Positions 19,550-60,146 of a stretch of 64,000 bases of DNA are shown here, piece after piece. The position numbers were made by a program, and so were the translations under genes. The stretch spans positions 2,561 through 66,560 of the forward strand of contig JASGFX010000005.1 of assembly GCA_047605325.1 (NCBI GenBank), in the 5' to 3' direction. The stretch is from Solirubrobacterales bacterium. Its GTDB lineage: Bacteria; Actinomycetota; Thermoleophilia; Solirubrobacterales; JACPNS01. The notes under the pieces are model-generated. The model saw only the letters and a list, made by a program, of their open reading frames with translations, had not been told where the DNA came from and searched no databases. Position 1 is the first letter of the stretch, and each line of letters opens with the position of its first letter.

Positions 19550-20313
19550 CGTTGGTTTGAGCTGTGGCGCTCCCACGGCACCAGCTTGCGCTCGATCAGC
19601 GCCATCAGGCCGTAGAGCGCCAGCGAGCCGGCGGTCAGGATCAGGATCGCGGCGTAGATCCGCGAGGTGTCGAAGTTCGGTGTGCCGCGCTGGATCAGAT
19701 AGCCGAGTCCCTGACTTGCGCCGGCATATTCGGCGAAGACGGCGGCGATGAACGCCCAAGTCGCCGCGATCCGCACGCCGCCGAGCAGTCGCGGCAGTGC
19801 GGCGGGCAGCTCGGCGAGTCGCAGGATCCGCGCGCGGCCGGCTCCGAGCGAGCGCATCAGATCGATCAGCTGCGGATCTGCGCTGCGCAGGCCGTCGAAC
19901 GTGCCGATCACGACCGGAAAAAAACAGGCGATCGCGACGATCAGGATCTTGGTGGTGATTCCGAAGCCGAAGGCGATCACGAGCAGCGGCGCGAGCACGA
20001 CCGTCGGCACGGCCTGCGAGGCGACGACCACCGGCAGCGTGGCGTCGCGCAGAAAGGGGGAGAGGTGGAGCAGCGTGCCGAGAAAGATGCCCACGCCGAT
20101 TGCGAGCAGCAGTCCGAGGAGCGCCTCACGCGCGGTCACCAGAGTGGCGGGGCCGAGGATGTCCAGCTCGCCGGTCAATGTCCGCGCGACGTCGACCGGT
20201 CCGGAGACGACGAGATCGCTGAGGCCGGAGTAGCGGTCGAAGAGCTCCCAGGCGACCAGGATCGCCGCGAAGGCGATGATCGGACTGAGCCAGCGGCTGT
20301 GCCTGGAGGTCAC
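19546..20313 (-). CDS. thiX: ABC transporter permease (ThiX-type)
   Basis: Track ORF trimmed to the GTG at 20313, which overlaps the ATPase stop as GTGA. About 6 TM helices. 4-nt overlap with thiY. Confidence 0.75.
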   Translation of the reverse strand: MTSRHSRWLSPIIAFAAILVAWELFDRYSGLSDLVVSGPVDVARTLTGELDILGPATLVTAREALLGLLLAIGVGIFLGTLLHLSPFLRDATLPVVVASQAVPTVVLAPLLVIAFGFGITTKILIVAIACFFPVVIGTFDGLRSADPQLIDLMRSLGAGRARILRLAELPAALPRLLGGVRIAATWAFIAAVFAEYAGASQGLGYLIQRGTPNFDTSRIYAAILILTAGSLALYGLMALIERKLVPWERHSSNQR

Positions 20314-21125
20314 AGGAGGGCCTCCAGCGCTTCGGCCTTCAGCTCCGCGAACTCGGGCGATGTGATCCACTCGGCGCGCGTGGCGCCCGCCGGGCGACGT
20401 GCGGTGATCTCGTCGACCACGCGGCCGGGGCGCGGCGAGAGGATGACCGTGCGGTCGGCGAGGGTCAGCGCCTCGTCGATGTCGTGGGTCACGAGCAGCA
20501 GCGTGCGTGGCTCGCCGCCGAGCGCGGTCAGCAGCCAGTCCTGCATCTCGCCGCGGGTGATCGAGTCGAGCGCGCCGAAGGGCTCGTCGAGCGCGAGCAG
20601 TTGCCTGCCCGTGAGCACCGTGCGCAGAAAGGCGACGCGCTGGCGCATGCCGCCGGAGAGTTCCCAGGTGCGTGACCGCTCGAAGCCGGCGAGTCCGAAG
20701 CGCTCGAAGACCGGCTGGGCGCGGGCGATCGCCTCCTTGCGGCTGACGCCCTGCGCCTCGAGGGCGAGCGCCGCATTGGCGATCGCCGTGCGCCACGGCA
20801 CGAGCAGGTCGCGCTGCGGCATCAAGGCCACCTCTTCGGCGGTGGCGACCGTGCCGGAGGCTGGCTTGATCAGGCCGGCGGCCAGCGCCAGCAGAGTGGA
20901 CTTGCCGCAGCCGGACGGTCCGACCACCGCGACGCGCTCACGCGGCGCGACCGTCAGCGAGAACCGATCGAGCGCCGTCGTCTCTTCCCGGCCTCGTGCG
21001 GCGTAACGAACCGTCACGTCTTCGAGCAGCAGCGCGGGTGCGGCGGCAGGCGAGCGCTCGGCAACCTCGGTGAGGCCGACCGGCCGCCCCGCGATCGGCG
21101 GGTCTGCGTGCTTGGGCGCTGGCAT
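20310..21125 (-). CDS. thiZ: ABC transporter ATP-binding protein (ThiZ-type)
   Basis: Walker A GPSGCGKST, signature LSGGMRQR, Walker B LLALDEPFGALD. Confidence 0.85.
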   Translation of the reverse strand: MPAPKHADPPIAGRPVGLTEVAERSPAAAPALLLEDVTVRYAARGREETTALDRFSLTVAPRERVAVVGPSGCGKSTLLALAAGLIKPASGTVATAEEVALMPQRDLLVPWRTAIANAALALEAQGVSRKEAIARAQPVFERFGLAGFERSRTWELSGGMRQRVAFLRTVLTGRQLLALDEPFGALDSITRGEMQDWLLTALGGEPRTLLLVTHDIDEALTLADRTVILSPRPGRVVDEITARRPAGATRAEWITSPEFAELKAEALEALL

Positions 21126-21129
21126 TCTT

Positions 21130-21245
21130 GCTTCCTTCGCGGGAATTACCCCACAGGTTCAAAGGGTCCGTGTCGGCGGCGCAGCGCTTTGGGCGGCTGC
21201 GCCCATCCACGATCTCAGCCCGCTTTGCCGCGAGCTCCCCTGATC
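21130..21245 (-). promoter_or_regulatory. TPP (THI-box) riboswitch
   Basis: Minus-strand read: GGGGAGCUCGCGGCAAAGCGGGCUGAGA...(long P3 with GGCGCAGC/GCUGCGCC stem)...ACCCUUUGAACCUGUGGGGUAAUUCCCGCGAAGGAAGCAAGAAUG. Conserved CUGAGA, ACCCUUUGAACCUG and GCGAAGGAA elements are present. The SD GAAGGAAG is embedded in the aptamer 3' side. Confidence 0.8.
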
Positions 21246-21279
21246 GGTACGACTGCCCGCAGCTTACACAGCCGCTCAA

Positions 21280-21589
21280 TTGCATGCCTCGGCCATGCAA
21301 CGCGCTCGCGGTGATTTTCGAGGCTTGGGAATGGGGTTTTGATTGCATGGCCGAGCCATGCAAAAGATCCCCCTTGTTCAAGGGCTTCCGCGGCGCAGGC
21401 AAACCTTGCATGGCCGAGCCATGCAAACTGCGGCGCGGTGCCTTGCAGCGCTTTGCGTTGCAAGGTTGGCCGGCCTCGATTTGCCGCTTGAACATCGGGT
21501 CTTCTTTGCAACACAAAGCGCTGCAAGGAAAACCGCTTGTCCACGCGGCTCGATCTCGTGGAATCTGCTTGCAACGCAAAGCGTTGCAA
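21280..21589. repeat. Array of six regularly spaced 21-bp palindromes (two subtypes), mostly with 42-bp unique spacers
   Basis: Type A TTGCATGGC-CGA-GCCATGCAA at 21280 (one mismatch), 21343 and 21406. Type B TTGCAACGC-AAA-GCGTTGCAA at 21443, 21506 and 21569. Start spacing 63, 63, 37, 63, 63 bp. Confidence 0.85.
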
Positions 21590-21635: not shown

Positions 21636-23090
21636 TCAGCGCGCGCGCACCGACGTCAACTCGCGCACGAAGTCTTCCAGCTGTTTGCTCGTCCAGCACT
21701 CGTAGACCCCGTCGCAGAAGTTCTCGTAGACCCCGATGACCGAGTCGCCGTAGTTCCAGTAGAGCCTCGGCTCGGGATTGAGCCAGAACGAGCGCCCGGC
21801 TCGCTCGGTGACCATGCTGAAGAGGTCGGCGCGTGGTTCGCGGCCGTTGGTGCGCGCATCGCCAAGCACGATCACGGTCGATCGTGGATCGAGGTCAGCG
21901 GCTACTTGGTCGTAGAAGTCGACCCACACGCGGCCGTAATCGGTGTAGCCGGAGATGTCGGCGACGCCGGCCGTGCTCGAGATCTTCTCGGAGGCCGTCT
22001 TGAAGCTGCGCTCCTGCTGGAAGACCTCGGTCACCTCGGCGACGCGCTCGATGAAGACGAACGTGCGCAGGCGGTTGAAGCTGTCGTGCAGCGCGTGCAG
22101 GATCGAGAGGAAGAAGACGCTCGCACTGGTGACGCTGGTCGAGACGTCGCAGAGGACGTAGAGCTCGGGCCTGCGCGGGCGGCGCGGGCGGTAGCGCAGG
22201 TTCAGGGGAACGCCGCCGGTCTCGAGCGAGGCGCGCATCGTGCCGCGCACATCGATCGGGCCGCTGCGCTGGTGGCCGCGTTGCTCGAGTCCCTGGGTGG
22301 CCATCGCGCGCTTGAGCATCTTCACCGACCGATGCACCGCCGCGAGGTCCGCCGCGCCGCCGGAGGGCAGCGCGCGGTTCAGCTCGTTGAGTGGCCTCGT
22401 CGCCGGCAGCTCGCCCGAGTCGGCGATCAGCCTGGCCTCGAGTTCGCGCCGTACGTGTTGCTCGAACTTCTGCAGCTGTTTGCGCAGGTCTGCGCCTTCT
22501 TCGCCGGGCGGCAGGTCCTGCGCGCGCAGCTCGAGCTGGCGACGCACACGCTGCACATCGACGCCGATCACGCCGCTGCTCGATCCTCCGGCGAGCGTCA
22601 TGATCGCGAGCCGTGCCAGGTCGAGGAGGTCCCCGTCGTCGCCGTTCTGCAGCGCCTCCATGATCGCGTCGCGCAGCGCTTCGACGTCGATCTCGCCGTC
22701 ACCATCGCCGTCGCCCTGACCCTCCATCGGCTCGCCGCCTTCGGCAGCCCGCTGTTCTCCGGCGCCCTTTTCATCGCCGGCCTGCTCCTTCGACGCCTCG
22801 AGTTCGGTCGCGCGGAAGAAATAGCGATCGAACACCGCCGAGAAGAGGTCGCGGTCCTCTTGGGACTTCGCGATCGTCGCCGACATCGCGGTCTTGAACT
22901 CTGCGCGCCTCTGCCAGTTCACCGCGCTCAGCGCGTCGAAGGCGTCGAGCAGCTCGGACGTGCCGACCGACATTCCCTCCTCGCGCAGCTCACGGGCGAA
23001 ATCGACCATGATCGGTTCGAAACCGCTCGCGGCCTCCCCGCCCGGACCGCCGGTTGTGAACCTCGCCCAGCTTGGAGTGTCGGCGGCCAC
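21636..23090 (-). CDS. VWA domain-containing CoxE-like protein
   Basis: 484 aa. C-terminal VWA-like region (LYVLCDVSTSVTSASVFFLSILHAL ... VIVLGDARTNG). Acidic linker. Immediately downstream of a MoxR ATPase. Confidence 0.8.
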   Translation of the reverse strand: MAADTPSWARFTTGGPGGEAASGFEPIMVDFARELREEGMSVGTSELLDAFDALSAVNWQRRAEFKTAMSATIAKSQEDRDLFSAVFDRYFFRATELEASKEQAGDEKGAGEQRAAEGGEPMEGQGDGDGDGEIDVEALRDAIMEALQNGDDGDLLDLARLAIMTLAGGSSSGVIGVDVQRVRRQLELRAQDLPPGEEGADLRKQLQKFEQHVRRELEARLIADSGELPATRPLNELNRALPSGGAADLAAVHRSVKMLKRAMATQGLEQRGHQRSGPIDVRGTMRASLETGGVPLNLRYRPRRPRRPELYVLCDVSTSVTSASVFFLSILHALHDSFNRLRTFVFIERVAEVTEVFQQERSFKTASEKISSTAGVADISGYTDYGRVWVDFYDQVAADLDPRSTVIVLGDARTNGREPRADLFSMVTERAGRSFWLNPEPRLYWNYGDSVIGVYENFCDGVYECWTSKQLEDFVRELTSVRAR

Positions 23091-23099
23091 GGGCTGCCC

Positions 23100-24017
23100 C
23101 TAGCGCGGGCGCGGCGCGCCGATCGCGGCGGAGCCCGGCTTGGAGAGCTTCACGCCAACGCGTTCGGCGACGAGGTCCATGTCGGAGCGGTGTTTGACGA
23201 TGATGCTCATCGTCTCTTCGAAGGTCTCGCGGTCGATCTGGTCGACGCCGAGCAGCATCAGCGTGCGCGCCCAGTCGATCGACTCGCTGATGCTCGGCGG
23301 CTTCTTGACGTCGATGTCGCGAACCATTCGCACGACCTCGACGAGCCGCTCGGCGAGTTTCTCGTCGAGGTCGGGCACGTGCAGCCGCACGATTTCGACT
23401 TCGCGGGAGTTCTCGGGGTAGTCGAGCCAGAGGTAGAGGCACCGCCGCTTGAGCGCCTCGGTCAGTTCGCGCGAGTCGTTGCTGGTCAGGAGGACGATCG
23501 GGTGAGTCGTCGCCTCGACGACGCCGAGCTCTGGGATCGAGACCTGGAAGTCGGAGAGGATCTCGAGCAGCAGCGCCTCGAATTCGTGGTCGGTCTTGTC
23601 GATCTCGTCGATCAGGAGCACGACGGGCTCTTCGGACGCGATCGCCTGGAGCAGGGGGCGCGTGAGCAGGAACTCCTCGGAGAAGATGTTGTCCTGCACG
23701 GAATCCCACGCGGCGTCGTCCTCGGCCGCGGCTGCTCCGCTCTGGATGCGCAGCAGTTGCTTCTTGTAGTTCCACTCGTACAGCGCCTTGGCCTCGTCGA
23801 CGCCCTCGTAGCACTGCAGGCGGATCAGCTCGCGACCGGTGTAGCGCGCGAGCGCCTTGGCGAGTTCGGTCTTGCCTACGCCAGCGGGCCCTTCCACGAG
23901 TACAGGCTTGCCGAGCTGGACGGCGAGATAGCTGACGAGGGAAGTGGTCTCGTCGGGCAGGTATCCGGCGGCCTCAAGGCCGCTGCTGACGGCTGCGGGG
24001 GAATCGGGCGTGGTCAT
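23100..24017 (-). CDS. MoxR/CoxD-like AAA+ ATPase
   Basis: Walker A EGPAGVGKT, Walker B VVLLIDEIDK, and the typical MoxR length of 305 aa. Confidence 0.85.
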   Translation of the reverse strand: MTTPDSPAAVSSGLEAAGYLPDETTSLVSYLAVQLGKPVLVEGPAGVGKTELAKALARYTGRELIRLQCYEGVDEAKALYEWNYKKQLLRIQSGAAAAEDDAAWDSVQDNIFSEEFLLTRPLLQAIASEEPVVLLIDEIDKTDHEFEALLLEILSDFQVSIPELGVVEATTHPIVLLTSNDSRELTEALKRRCLYLWLDYPENSREVEIVRLHVPDLDEKLAERLVEVVRMVRDIDVKKPPSISESIDWARTLMLLGVDQIDRETFEETMSIIVKHRSDMDLVAERVGVKLSKPGSAAIGAPRPR

Positions 24018-34104: not shown

Positions 34105-34129
34105 AAGGGGTTGCAGAGGGGTCCCGCAT

Positions 34130-34290
34130 GAACAAGGGGCAAATCTTCCATCGGGCGACCCGTCAGGGACGCCCGATGGAAGATTCACCGCTAGAAACCG
34201 ACCCACTCGCTTCACCACTCATCGCCGGCCGCGAAGCGGCCCGCACTCGACCGCCTCGAGCAACAACCCACCACCCACGACGGCAGTCGA
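34130..34290. repeat. Half-copy (single module) of the structured intergenic repeat family
   Basis: Central hairpin AATCTTCCATCGGGCG...CGCCCGATGGAAGATT, GGCCGCGAAGCGGCC hairpin, CA-rich tract, terminal CACGACGGCAGTCGA. Confidence 0.7.
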
Positions 34291-36709: not shown

Positions 36710-36736
36710 TCCTCTCGTAGACAAGCCAGTTCCCTG

Positions 36737-36775
36737 CCAAACCTCCGCCCGATCGGGCGGAGGTTTGGCATTTAA
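36737..36775 (+). terminator. Intrinsic terminator
   Basis: CCAAACCTCCGCCC-GATC-GGGCGGAGGTTTGG followed by CATTTA. Confidence 0.65.
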
Positions 36776-39515: not shown

Positions 39516-39823
39516 TTGACTGCCGTCTTGGGCGACCGGTTTCGGGTTGCTGTTGGTTGAGTGCGGGCGGCTTCGCCGCCAGCTATGAGGTGAGTGGATG
39601 GAGCCGTGGCAAGCCCCGAATCTTCCATGGTCTCTCCCGGCGGGAGAGACCATGGAGTAAAAGCCCAGTGTTCAAGCGGGATCCTGCTTCAACTCTGCGC
39701 GCGAAACGCAGAGTTGAAGGAAAGGACGGCTCAACCCAGCCGGACAACCTTCATCGCCGGCCGCGAAGCGGCCCACACTCAACTAGCTCGATCAATCAAA
39801 CCGCCGCCCAAGACGGCAGTCAA
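39516..39823. repeat. Full-length copy of the structured intergenic repeat family (308 bp, long imperfect palindrome)
   Basis: 19-bp TIRs TTGACTGCCGTCTTGGGCG / CGCCCAAGACGGCAGTCAA. The arms are roughly 75% identical as reverse complements (by eye). Central hairpin CCATGGTCTCTCCC-GGCG-GGGAGAGACCATGG and a second hairpin TTCAACTCTGCG-CGCGAAA-CGCAGAGTTGAA. Fills the gap between convergent genes. Confidence 0.85.
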
Positions 39824-47736: not shown

Positions 47737-47959
47737 GGCGGATTCAAGCCTCAAATCCTCCATGGTCTCTCCCGGAAGGGGAGACCATGGATCAAACACC
47801 CCTTGAACAAGCCAGATCCGCCTCCAACTCTGCGCGAAAAGCGCAAAGTTGGAGAGAAGATCGCCCGCAGAGAGCACCGCTGATCCTTCGTCGCAGGCGG
47901 CGAAGCCGCCCCAGCTCGACCACCTCCAGCCCAAACAAACCTCGCACGACGCCAGTCAA
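47737..47959. repeat. Half-copy (single module) of the structured intergenic repeat family
   Basis: CCATGGTCTCTCCC-GGAA-GGGGAGACCATGG, TCCAACTCTGCGCGAAAAGCGCAAAGTTGGA, GGCGGCGAAGCCGCC, CA-rich tract, terminal CACGACGCCAGTCAA. Confidence 0.75.
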
Positions 47960-59713: not shown

Positions 59714-60068
59714 GGGGACGCCAGGTTTCGACGCGGCCGATTTCGTGGGTGGAGTTGCGAGCCGAGGTTGTCTGGAGGCCTCGTTAAACCCCAGGCAAAA
59801 CCATAAATGCGGACTCTCACGAGTACGCCCTCGTCTAAATAGACTGAGGCATCCGTCCAGCCTGGGCCCGTGGGCTGGGTAGCGGGTGTCAGCCAACGGG
59901 CTTGACCGAAGCGCGCGCATCAGGCGCCCGGTGACATTCAACTGACGCTGGCTCTCCCGGACCCTGCCGGCCTGGCTAACGGAGAGCGAGATCCAGAAAG
60001 CCGGACACGCTCGTAGACGCTTTATTCCACGCGGTTGCGGACGCGGGTTCAATTCCCGCCGTCTCCAC
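59714..60068 (+). ncRNA. ssrA: tmRNA (SsrA)
   Basis: 5' GGGGACGCCAGGUUUCGAC. 3' GGACGCGGGUUCAAUUCCCGCCGUCUCCA, a T-arm plus an acceptor stem with the G3:U pair. CCA is not fully encoded. Tag ORF GCG GAC UCU CAC GAG UAC GCC CUC GUC UAA at 59809-59838. Confidence 0.9.
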
Positions 60069-60146
60069 TTTGGGTCGCTGACTCGCACGTATTCGCCGAT
60101 GCTCGGGCTCCGGACTTTGGTGCCTTGTAGCGCTTATACTGAACTA

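What the first reader, a model, noticed from the sequence alone, without database searches (positions are those of the whole stretch)
21280..21589. Phased array of six 21-bp palindromes, most with unique 42-bp spacers (63-bp period), between the VWA gene and the TPP riboswitch
There are three copies of TTGCATGGC-CGA-GCCATGCAA (21280, 21343, 21406) and three of TTGCAACGC-AAA-GCGTTGCAA (21443, 21506, 21569). Both fit TTGCA-NN-GC-NNN-GC-NN-TGCAA. Start-to-start spacing is 63, 63, 37, 63, 63 bp. Four of the five spacers are exactly 42 bp and unrelated to one another; the spacer between the two subtypes is 16 bp. A 63-bp period is six turns of B-DNA, so all sites within a subtype face the same side of the helix. 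That fits cooperative binding of a dimeric protein, as in centromere-like, iteron-like or silencer arrays. Alternatively, each unit is a 9-bp stem with a triloop in RNA, giving a hairpin array at the 3' end of the upstream eight-gene cluster that could act as terminators, stabilisers or a REP-like cluster. The architecture is literally regularly interspaced short palindromic repeats. However, the repeats are shorter than known CRISPR repeats, there are two repeat types, and no cas genes are in the window.
Basis: seen in the sequence. Interest (0 to 1): 0.7.

Follow-up and report, generated by a model that had tools for sequence, protein, structure and literature searches.

The report
REP-like palindromic repeat cluster, Solirubrobacterales
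The six evenly spaced palindromes are real, but they are two side-by-side copies of a small hairpin-forming repeat element that is scattered through the DNA between genes in this group of soil actinobacteria. That makes them a new family of an ordinary kind of bacterial "junk/terminator" repeat, not a CRISPR array or a protein docking array.

Summary
The six 21-bp palindromes TTGCA-N11-TGCAA lie at the stated coordinates, spaced 63, 63, 37, 63 and 63 bp (6 matches against 0.03 expected). Each spacer carries a second motif, P2 (about CCCCTTGAACAAGGGG), joined by a 6-nt pyrimidine linker to one flanking palindrome.

The repeating unit is therefore a 63-nt module. Each triplet is a 147-bp inverted-repeat composite, and two sub-families (A and B) abut here.

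The window comes from a Solirubrobacterales MAG. The same module, always at exactly 63 bp, occurs next to unrelated genes in seven other Thermoleophilia contigs. Variants with co-varying stems occur in syntenic relatives. Some relatives lack the array at this site or carry one at a neighbouring junction.

Three more hairpin-plus-P2 modules lie elsewhere in the window. Every site touches a gene 3' end.

Best reading: a lineage-specific extragenic palindromic repeat family resembling REP/BIME/REPIN elements. No mobilising enzyme was identified, and no RAYT or GTAG signature was found. The CRISPR, iteron and operator-array readings are not supported.

Interest is modest. Open points are the strict 63-bp unit, the P2 motif, and different hairpin families occupying the same intergenic sites in different genomes.

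The parts
21280..21426 (.). Composite element A (147 bp): palindrome, spacer with P2 next to the right palindrome, central palindrome, spacer with P2 next to the left palindrome, palindrome. It is an inverted repeat centred on 21343-21363.
   Evidence: Folded as single-stranded DNA it forms one long hairpin: -52.9 kcal/mol, z = -6.0.
21443..21589 (.). Composite element B (147 bp). Same architecture as A, with stem sub-family TTGCAACGC/GCGTTGCAA.
   Evidence: Covariance-model hits of 43-52 bits for its two modules.
21427..21442 (.). 16-bp junction between composites A and B.
   Evidence: This is the only interval that is not 63 bp.
21280..21300 (.). PAL1, TTGCATGCCTCGGCCATGCAA (8 of 9 stem pairs). 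It ends 13 nt upstream of the conserved -10-like block of the thi promoter.
21343..21363 (.). PAL2, TTGCATGGCCGAGCCATGCAA (9 of 9 pairs). Centre of composite A.
21406..21426 (.). PAL3, identical to PAL2.
21443..21463 (.). PAL4, TTGCAGCGCTTTGCGTTGCAA (one G-T).
21506..21526 (.). PAL5, TTGCAACACAAAGCGCTGCAA (two A-C, which read as G-T on the other strand). Centre of composite B.
21569..21589 (.). PAL6, TTGCAACGCAAAGCGTTGCAA (9 of 9 pairs). It lies 47 nt downstream of the coxE-like stop codon.
21322..21336 (.). P2 motif, degenerate copy (GGCTTGGGAATGGGG), followed by TTTTGA and PAL2.
21370..21385 (.). P2 motif (minus strand reads GCCCTTGAACAAGGGG, then GATCTT and PAL2). It also matches a terminator-like hairpin plus T run on the minus strand.
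21484..21499 (.). P2 motif CCGCTTGAACATCGGG, followed by TCTTCT and PAL5.
21533..21548 (.). P2 motif CCGCTTGTCCACGCGG, preceded by PAL5 and GGAAAA.
21636..23090 (-). Context: VWA_CoxE gene whose 3' end precedes the array.
   Evidence: P0001 is 100% identical and comes from a Solirubrobacterales MAG.
21115..21251 (-). Context: TPP riboswitch leading the thiamine-precursor ABC transporter operon (ATPase 20310-21125, permease, NMT1/THI5 binding protein).
21261..21266 (-). Context: -10-like hexamer TAAGCT inside a block (TGTAnnCTG) conserved upstream of the riboswitch in six loci.
   Evidence: Alignment A2. That it is a promoter is an inference.
34124..34183 (+). Related solitary module: P2 (CCGCATGAACAAGGGG), 4 nt, then a hairpin with a 14-bp stem (TCTTCCATCGGGCG...CGCCCGATGGAAGA). 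It lies 83 nt after the stop of an acyl-CoA dehydrogenase gene.
39625..39719 (.). Related module, family C: hairpin H1, 8 nt, P2, 7 nt, hairpin H2. It lies between the convergent SIR2 and lytic transglycosylase genes.
47760..47854 (.). Second copy of family C (H1, 8 nt, P2, 8 nt, H2). It starts 26 nt after the stop of an enoyl-ACP-reductase-like gene.

Best explanation
**What it is.** The array is two abutting copies, sub-families A and B, of a 147-bp composite inverted-repeat element.
- The building block is a 63-nt module: about 16 weakly conserved nt, then the P2 motif CCCCTTGAACAAGGGG, then a 6-nt pyrimidine linker, then a 21-bp perfect palindrome.
- Two modules placed head to head share the central palindrome. 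That produces three palindromes exactly 63 bp apart.
- The module belongs to a lineage-specific superfamily of extragenic hairpin repeats in Solirubrobacterales/Thermoleophilia. In organisation it is equivalent to REP/BIME/REPIN elements.

**Shown.**
- It is non-coding.
- It is dispersed to unrelated intergenic sites within and between genomes.
- It is present or absent at orthologous sites.
- It is confined to spacers that contain a gene 3' end.
- Its stems stay self-complementary while their sequence changes.

**Inferred.**
- It spreads and is homogenised by a DNA-level process acting on hairpin-forming single-stranded or cruciform DNA. This would be a trans-acting enzyme not yet identified, together with local tandem duplication and inversion between palindromes, which would also explain the flipped loops and flipped spacers.
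- When transcribed as the tail of the upstream operon, the stable stem-loops, including the P2 hairpin with its U-rich run, probably end or stabilise that transcript. That would insulate the thi promoter lying 13 nt beyond PAL1.
- The 63-bp period is the module length, not a ruler for cooperative protein binding.
For: **The same module in other genomes.**
- TTGCATGCC-N3-GGCATGCAA occurs at exactly 63 bp in L039, L115, L090 and L092 (genome scan) and in L128, L144 and L150 (metagenome scan with the gap free from 27 to 57).
- That gives 14 intervals of 63 bp outside the window and 4 inside it.

**Spacer homology and the P2 motif.** Alignment A4 holds 27 oriented units.

**Unrelated neighbours.**

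**Presence or absence at orthologous sites.**
- The coxE-thi spacer is 510 bp here. It is 156 bp in L167 and L188, 234 bp in L189 and 255 bp in L171, all without an array.
- L167 instead has a roughly 300-bp array inserted between coxD and coxE, where other loci have a 9-bp gap.
- L190 has a decayed array in the coxE-thi spacer.
- L169 has two arrays.

**Dispersal within one genome.**
- L167 and L192 carry the same CTGCGCACC family and the same linker at two sites on one contig.
- L039 and L115 carry an identical palindrome and loop on two contigs of one MAG.

**Stem covariation.** 94.9% of cells are paired and 5 of 9 pairs show compensatory changes across five families.

**More modules in the window.**
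- P2 has 8 hits against 0.34 expected.
- Three further hairpin-plus-P2 modules lie at 34.1, 39.6 and 47.8 kb.

**Position.** None of about 13 independent sites lies between divergent genes.

**Folding.** Composite A folds as one long hairpin, z = -6.0.

**Published parallel.** REPIN families show fixed neighbour distances (71 and 110 bp), ordered tandem clusters, and unrelated REPINs inserted beside each other (PMC3116915).
Against: - No transposase or RAYT has been linked to the elements. None was found in about 0.3 Mb of Thermoleophilia DNA held. That is a weak negative.
- The palindromes are perfect and lack the 5' GTAG-type tetranucleotide of classical REPs.
- No target-site duplication or sharp element boundary could be defined.
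- The copy number per genome is not known.
- Different hairpin families occupy the same intergenic sites in different genomes. That could instead mean in-place evolution of a host-selected 3'-end element rather than mobility.
- The unit length has no indels in 18 intervals. This hints at a constraint on length that simple selfish spread does not predict.
Confidence: 0.6

Rival explanations
1. Host-selected 3'-end signals. The hairpin-plus-P2 modules would be this clade's transcription terminators or mRNA 3' stabilisers, possibly read by a P2-binding factor. They would be inherited vertically at each intergenic site, and arrays would be local expansions. There would be no transposition.
For: - Every site touches a gene 3' end, 25-115 nt after a stop codon.
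- P2 flanked by an A run and a T run looks like a bidirectional intrinsic terminator, and the scan tool calls one at 21369-21384 on the minus strand.
- The same intergenic sites (SLT|SIR2, FabI-like|ABC, ACAD|DSBA, coxE|thi) hold modules in several genomes.
- One neighbouring hairpin is 100% conserved between genomes.
Against: - Arrays of 3-6 hairpins are more than a terminator needs.
- Some orthologous sites are empty, or the genes there overlap (L191, L167, L188).
- An array sits inside an operon between coxD and coxE in L167.
- The L190 copy is decaying.
- The P2 helix is only 61% paired, and in family C it cannot form a stable hairpin.
- Departures from pairing are A-C as often as G-U, so no RNA strand is favoured.
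- Identical palindrome and loop at unrelated sites within one genome indicate copying.
Confidence: 0.22
2. A phased array of operators for a dimeric DNA-binding protein, acting as silencer, iteron, centromere-like or nucleoid-organising sites. The 63 bp, six helical turns, would put all sites on one face of the helix.
For: - The dyad symmetry is perfect.
- The period is exactly 63 bp in 18 intervals, with no indels, although the spacer sequence is poorly conserved.
- PAL1 lies just upstream of the thi promoter block.
- Outer positions YTGC...GCAR are conserved.
Against: - The module occurs at promoter-less convergent gene ends and beside unrelated genes.
- There is no rep, par or regulator gene partner.
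- Related families have 64-65 bp units and 83-93 bp gaps.
- Inner stem positions vary yet stay complementary, which contacts with double-stranded DNA do not require.
- Two or more stem families coexist in one genome.
- The array is absent from the thi promoter in most relatives, which keep the riboswitch and the -10 block.
Confidence: 0.08
3. A degenerate or novel CRISPR-like array with 21-bp repeats and 42-bp spacers.
For: Regular spacing of short palindromic repeats.
Against: - The spacers are homologous to each other and carry P2.
- The units occur in both orientations and the loops flip.
- Arrays have 2-6 units.
- There are no matches to phages, plasmids or viral contigs.
- No cas genes are adjacent in any of about 12 loci.
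Confidence: 0.01
4. MIRU-like intercistronic repeats carrying mini-ORFs that couple translation. The ATG inside TTGCATGCC, preceded by AAGGGG, opens a 14-codon frame that ends at the TGA of the next P2.
For: - The period is a multiple of 3.
- Such a frame exists in the L115 units.
- One array lies between coxD and coxE.
Against: - Other stem families have no ATG.
- Units are inverted within arrays.
- Many arrays lie between convergent genes.
- The 37-bp step in the window breaks the frame.
Confidence: 0.02

Closest known systems
REP / BIME elements of Enterobacteria and REPINs of Pseudomonas (REP doublets mobilised by RAYT transposases)
   Same: - Short GC-rich extragenic palindromes at gene 3' ends and between operon genes.
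- Copies occur in both orientations, joined by conserved linker motifs.
- Each family has a fixed neighbour distance (71 and 110 bp in P. fluorescens, 63 bp here).
- They form ordered tandem clusters, and unrelated families sit side by side.
- Several families coexist per genome.
- A doublet or triplet folds into one long hairpin.
- Occupied sites persist across species (PMC3116915).
   Different: - The palindrome here is perfect, with a 9-bp stem and a 3-nt loop, and has no 5' GTAG-like tetranucleotide.
- A second conserved motif, P2, is part of every unit.
- No RAYT was found.
- The host is an actinobacterial class for which the searched papers describe no REP or RAYT system.
BIME-1 / RIP elements of E. 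coli (two inverted REPs flanking a central motif that binds IHF)
   Same: Family C in this window (hairpin, 8 nt, P2, 8 nt, hairpin) and the palindrome-linker-P2 arrangement have the same layout: a conserved non-hairpin motif between two hairpins.
   Different: P2 does not match the IHF consensus, and no binding protein is known. This is a resemblance recalled from general knowledge and was not tested.
Conserved-sequence intrinsic terminators of mycobacteria (the 'TRIT' class) and MITE-borne terminators
   Same: A repeated, sequence-conserved stem-loop at convergent gene ends. P2 with its A and T runs looks like a bidirectional terminator.
   Different: The most conserved part here, the 21-bp palindrome, has no U run. 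Units form arrays. The TRIT comparison rests on my own recollection and was not checked in a paper.
CRISPR arrays
   Same: Regularly interspaced short palindromic repeats.
   Different: - The spacers are homologous to each other.
- The units invert.
- The repeat is shorter than any CRISPR repeat.
- There are no cas genes, no leader and no protospacer matches.
MIRU (mycobacterial interspersed repetitive units)
   Same: An actinobacterial intergenic tandem repeat of tens of bp, sometimes found inside operons.
   Different: MIRUs are direct repeats in one orientation with small overlapping ORFs. The units here are palindromic, invert, and lie mostly at gene ends.

Membership tests
REP / BIME / REPIN | Short (about 20-40 nt) palindromic unit able to form a stem-loop | tested here: met
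   The unit is a 21-nt palindrome. 94.9% of stem cells are paired across 24 copies, and 5 of 9 pairs show compensatory changes.
REP / BIME / REPIN | Extragenic position, typically at gene 3' ends or between genes of an operon | tested here: met
   All of about 13 independent sites touch a gene 3' end and none lies between divergent genes.
REP / BIME / REPIN | Many dispersed copies per genome | tested here: inconclusive
   - Four module sites lie in this 64-kb window.
- Two sites lie on one contig of GCA_023404495.1.
- Two contigs of one MAG carry the module.
REP / BIME / REPIN | Copies in alternating orientation with conserved linker motifs and a family-specific spacing; a doublet folds as one hairpin | tested here: met
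   Right-facing and left-facing modules share a central palindrome. The P2 motif and linker are conserved. The period is 63 bp in 18 intervals. Composite A folds as one hairpin, z = -6.0.
REP / BIME / REPIN | Conserved 5' tetranucleotide (GTAG-like) beside an imperfect palindrome | tested here: not met
   The palindromes are perfect and symmetric. The flanks are a pyrimidine linker on one side and variable sequence on the other.
REP / BIME / REPIN | A cognate single-copy RAYT (Y1/HUH transposase) gene flanked by the repeats | tested here: inconclusive
The rest of each genome could not be searched.
CRISPR | Direct repeats in a single orientation separated by unique spacers acquired from foreign DNA | tested here: not met
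   - The spacers align with each other and share P2.
- Units and loops are inverted within arrays.
- There are no phage, plasmid or viral matches.
CRISPR | Adjacent cas genes or a leader | tested here: not met
   The neighbours are metabolic or transport genes in all loci examined.
Iteron / centromere-like (parS, parC) arrays | Linked to a replication or partition gene, and specific to one locus or replicon | tested here: not met
   No rep or par gene is nearby. The same module sits at unrelated chromosomal sites, and tmRNA and housekeeping genes lie in the window.
Intrinsic (rho-independent) terminator | GC-rich stem-loop followed directly by a U run, downstream of a gene | tested here: inconclusive
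   P2 plus linker fits at 21369-21384 on the minus strand and in many units (GGGG followed by TTTTCC). However, the P2 helix is only 61% paired and the 21-bp palindromes have no U run. There are no transcript data.
MITE | Terminal inverted repeats with target-site duplication, and a related full-length IS | tested here: inconclusive
   The composites are inverted repeats. Comparisons of filled and empty sites gave no clean boundary or duplication, and no related IS was seen.

The most novel reading that the evidence does not exclude
The hairpin-plus-P2 modules may be a clade-wide system not previously recognised, rather than a mere REP look-alike.
- P2 would be a conserved motif read by a dedicated protein. 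That protein could be a mobilising enzyme other than RAYT, or a termination or processing factor.
- The flanking palindromes would be rewritten in concert across each genome, so that the same intergenic sites carry different genome-specific stems.
- The strict 63-bp unit would reflect a structural ruler of that protein-DNA complex.
Probability: 0.15. Interest if true: 0.6.

Novelty: new member of a known kind. Interest (0 to 1): 0.33.

Why it matters
- It removes a false lead, since this is neither a CRISPR-like nor an iteron-like array.
- It documents what appears to be an undescribed extragenic palindromic repeat family in Thermoleophilia, an abundant but poorly studied class of soil actinobacteria. 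The papers searched describe no REP/RAYT system for this class.
- These repeats break MAG assemblies. Three arrays sit at contig ends.
- They mark variable intergenic hot spots and may shape operon boundaries, here between a MoxR/VWA cluster and a riboswitch-controlled thiamine-precursor transporter.
- If the mobilising or binding factor for the P2 motif is found, the family would allow a test of whether REPIN-like systems exist outside Proteobacteria.

Tried and rejected
- **Literature by sequence.** A search for the 9-mers returned only cloning primers.
- **First genome-wide scan.** The pattern (gap 16-46) was too loose.
- **Rfam.** Nothing beyond spurious microRNA-like hits caused by pairing between palindromes.
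- **Viral contigs, phage and plasmid databases.** No arrays. There were 13 single chance hits for one variant.
- **RAYT search.** Nothing in the loci held.
- **Sigma-70, sigma-54 and ECF promoter readings of P2 and the palindrome.** The hexamers and spacings do not fit (and by eye).
- **Known actinobacterial operators compared from memory** (HAIR, LexA Cheo box, PHO box, Rex). None fits.
- **Mini-ORF (MIRU-like) reading.** Rejected because it holds for only one stem family and one orientation.
- **Tying loop orientation to spacer orientation.** Inconsistent in L115.
- **G-U strand test.** In oriented units, departures from pairing are 3 G-U against 6 A-C, so no RNA strand preference is evident.
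- **Element boundaries or target duplications from filled and empty sites.** The sequences are too diverged.

Full report
**1. The observation**

Six matches to TTGCA-N11-TGCAA lie at 21280, 21343, 21406, 21443, 21506 and 21569.
- Shuffled windows give 0.03 matches. Allowing one mismatch adds none in 64 kb.
- Spacing is 63, 63, 37, 63, 63 bp, as reported.
- The quoted sequences are only partly right. Copy 1 is the flipped form of copies 2 and 3 with one stem mismatch. Copies 4 and 5 are flipped or mutated forms of copy 6.
- Judged by the 3-nt loop, the orientation pattern is (-,+,+)(-,+,+).
- Tandem Repeats Finder sees no array, because only about a third of each unit is well conserved.

**2. 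Context**

Everything nearby is on the minus strand.
- A MoxR-type AAA gene (23100-24017) and a VWA_CoxE gene (21636-23090) come first.
- The array follows, then a TPP riboswitch (21115-21251). It scores 42 bits, below Rfam's gathering score of 54, because of a 35-nt insert.
- Next comes an ABC transporter with an NMT1/THI5-type binding protein.
- The VWA protein is 100% identical to one from a Solirubrobacterales MAG.

**3. The same thing elsewhere**

A scan of 185,579 species genomes for two such palindromes 16-46 bp apart returned mostly unrelated tandem repeats.
- It also returned four Thermoleophilia MAG contigs (L039, L115, L090, L092) with TTGCATGCC-N3-GGCATGCAA at exactly 63-bp intervals.
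- A complete metagenome scan with the gap free from 27 to 57 bp found three more high-GC contigs (L128, L144, L150), again all at 63 bp.
- The total is 14 intervals of 63 bp outside the window and 4 inside it.
- Flanking genes differ at every site: PEPCK, a lytic transglycosylase, a sugar transferase, a hydrolase, a TetR regulator and tRNA-Gly.
- Two of these arrays sit at contig ends.

**4. The spacers are not unique**

Printed in register and then oriented, the spacers share three features:
- a motif P2, about CCCCTTGAACAAGGGG, often preceded by GAAAA and followed by TTTTCC;
- a 6-nt linker joining P2 to one flanking palindrome;
- about 16 weakly conserved nucleotides with the consensus GATTCTGCGCC-GAGAAA.

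The repeat is therefore a 63-nt module. Modules occur in both orientations. The commonest arrangement has a right-facing and a left-facing module sharing a central palindrome. This holds for window triplets A and B and for L039, L090 and L144. It gives a 147-bp inverted repeat that folds as one long hairpin (RNA fold of the whole region, z = -7.2).

The window thus holds two such composites of different stem sub-families, 16 bp apart.

**5. Relatives of this locus**

Ten syntenic loci were fetched through CoxE homologues that are 75-88% identical.
- **No array at this site.** The coxE-thi spacer is 510 bp here. It is 156 bp in L167 and L188, 234 bp in L189 and 255 bp in L171, all without an array. 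The riboswitch and a TGTAnnCTG block upstream of it are conserved in these loci.
- **L167.** It has instead a roughly 300-bp array of CTGCGCACC-N3-GGTGCGCAG inserted between coxD and coxE, where the other loci have 9 bp.
- **L169.** It has two arrays of YTGCACACC-N3-GGTGTGCAR flanking an inserted pair of genes.
- **L190.** It has a decayed array, with stems no longer complementary, in the coxE-thi spacer.
- **Geometry of these variants.** Units are 64-65 bp and are arranged as two doublets in inverted orientation, 62-93 bp apart. They carry the same P2 motif.

**6. Stems co-vary**

Across 24 palindromes from five stem families, 94.9% of cells pair and five of nine pairs show compensatory changes. 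No shuffle reaches the covariation score.
- Outer positions (YTGC...GCAR) and the loop-closing C-G are conserved. Positions 5-8 vary but stay complementary.
- RNAalifold recovers only this helix. P2 pairs in only 61% of cells, so it behaves as a sequence motif more than as a hairpin.
- In oriented units, departures from pairing are A-C (6) at least as often as G-U (3). No RNA strand is favoured, which points to a DNA-level palindrome.

**7. More members in the window**

A covariance model of the module, run without filters, found only weak hits outside the array. Those hits, together with a P2 search (8 hits against 0.34 expected), revealed three more modules.
- **34124-34183:** P2 followed by a hairpin with a 14-bp stem.
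- **39625-39719 and 47760-47854:** two copies of a third family with the layout hairpin H1, 8 nt, P2, 7-8 nt, hairpin H2.
- All three lie 25-115 nt after stop codons.

**8. The same sites carry different families**

The transglycosylase gene beside the 39.6-kb module is the orthologue of the gene beside the L115 array. At that orthologous site:
- this genome has family C;
- the L115 MAG has a 5-unit ATGCC array;
- L192 has a 4-unit CTGCGCACC array of the same family and linker as L167, about 20 kb away on the same contig;
- L191 has nothing, because the genes overlap.

Two other orthologous spacers show the same pattern. This demonstrates dispersal within a genome. It also leaves two possibilities open: either these sites are insertion hot spots, or resident elements are rewritten to match each genome's current stem family.

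**9. Interpretation**

The features match the organisation of REP/BIME/REPIN elements:
- extragenic hairpins at gene ends;
- units in both orientations with conserved linkers;
- a spacing specific to each family;
- ordered clusters, with unrelated families inserted side by side;
- several families per genome;
- decay of some copies.

The published REPIN description has the same hallmarks (PMC3116915).

Two defining REP features are missing or untested. There is no GTAG-like 5' signature, and no RAYT was found in the little DNA available. I therefore file this as a REP-like family, not as a proven REP/RAYT system.

The operator or iteron reading fails on genomic distribution and on the covariation. 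The CRISPR reading fails on spacer homology, on orientation, and on the absence of cas genes and of phage or plasmid matches. No paper in the library describes such repeats in this class.

**10. What remains odd**
- The unit length has no indel in 18 intervals, although the spacer is poorly conserved.
- P2 is conserved across hairpin families without being a good hairpin.
- The same spacers are repeatedly occupied in different genomes.

These points keep a more novel reading alive, in which a protein reads P2 and imposes a structural ruler. I put that at about 15%.

Noticed in passing
window 21115-21251 (-): The TPP riboswitch scores 42.2 bits, below Rfam's gathering score of 54.3, because of a 35-nt insert. 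It is nevertheless conserved, together with a ThiXYZ-like ABC operon and an upstream TGTAnnCTG block, in six syntenic loci.
   Followed up: partly
window 36736-36769; L192 15296-15329: The hairpin GCCAAACCTCCGCCCGATCGGGCGGAGGTTTGGC, between an acyl-CoA dehydrogenase gene and a 3-hydroxyacyl-CoA dehydrogenase gene, is 100% identical in a genome whose proteins are only about 78% identical.
   Followed up: no
L166 11524-14100; L169 11871-14811: The spacer between the VWA gene and the thi operon is a variable spot. One relative has a penicillin amidase gene inserted there. Another has an aldehyde dehydrogenase gene plus a MimR_N/GAF regulator gene, flanked on both sides by palindrome arrays.
   Followed up: partly
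L188 16176-17016: An 840-bp intergenic region is built from three 93-bp tandem units, a centre with about five P2-like motifs and a long hairpin, and then three 93-bp units in inverted orientation.
   Followed up: partly
L039 980-1130: A tandem repeat of about 18-19 bp (GTCTGCAGCTTTGGTTTC...) lies immediately beside the palindrome array, upstream of the PEPCK gene's 3' end.
   Followed up: no
L044, L082, L093, L094 (one Saccharibacteria MAG); also L086, L107, L126, L149: Other phyla carry dispersed doublets of 21-bp palindromes with the same TTGCA...TGCAA ends. An example is TTGCAAGGAnnnTCCTTGCAA, 59-61 bp apart, with two conserved spacer types on four contigs of one MAG.
   Followed up: partly
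L139 6380-6501: Three direct tandem copies of TTGCATGCGAGACGCATGCAA occur at a 50/51-bp period with nearly identical spacers, in a 49%-GC metagenome contig. This is a different, simple tandem repeat.
   Followed up: no
L173 2000-2045: In the relative whose CoxE is 86% identical, the coxE stop is followed by a single long hairpin (GACCAAGGCCTCGCAC-TTG-GTGCGAGGCCTTGGTC) between convergent genes, in place of an array.
   Followed up: no
L022, L025, L030, L040, L050, L056, L059, L074, L106 (Planctomycetes): A 48-bp tandem repeat containing TTGCAGACCTTGTAGGTGCAA recurs in many Planctomycetes genomes.
   Followed up: no
window 59714-60070 (+): A tmRNA gene (161 bits), which indicates that the window is chromosomal.
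   Followed up: no
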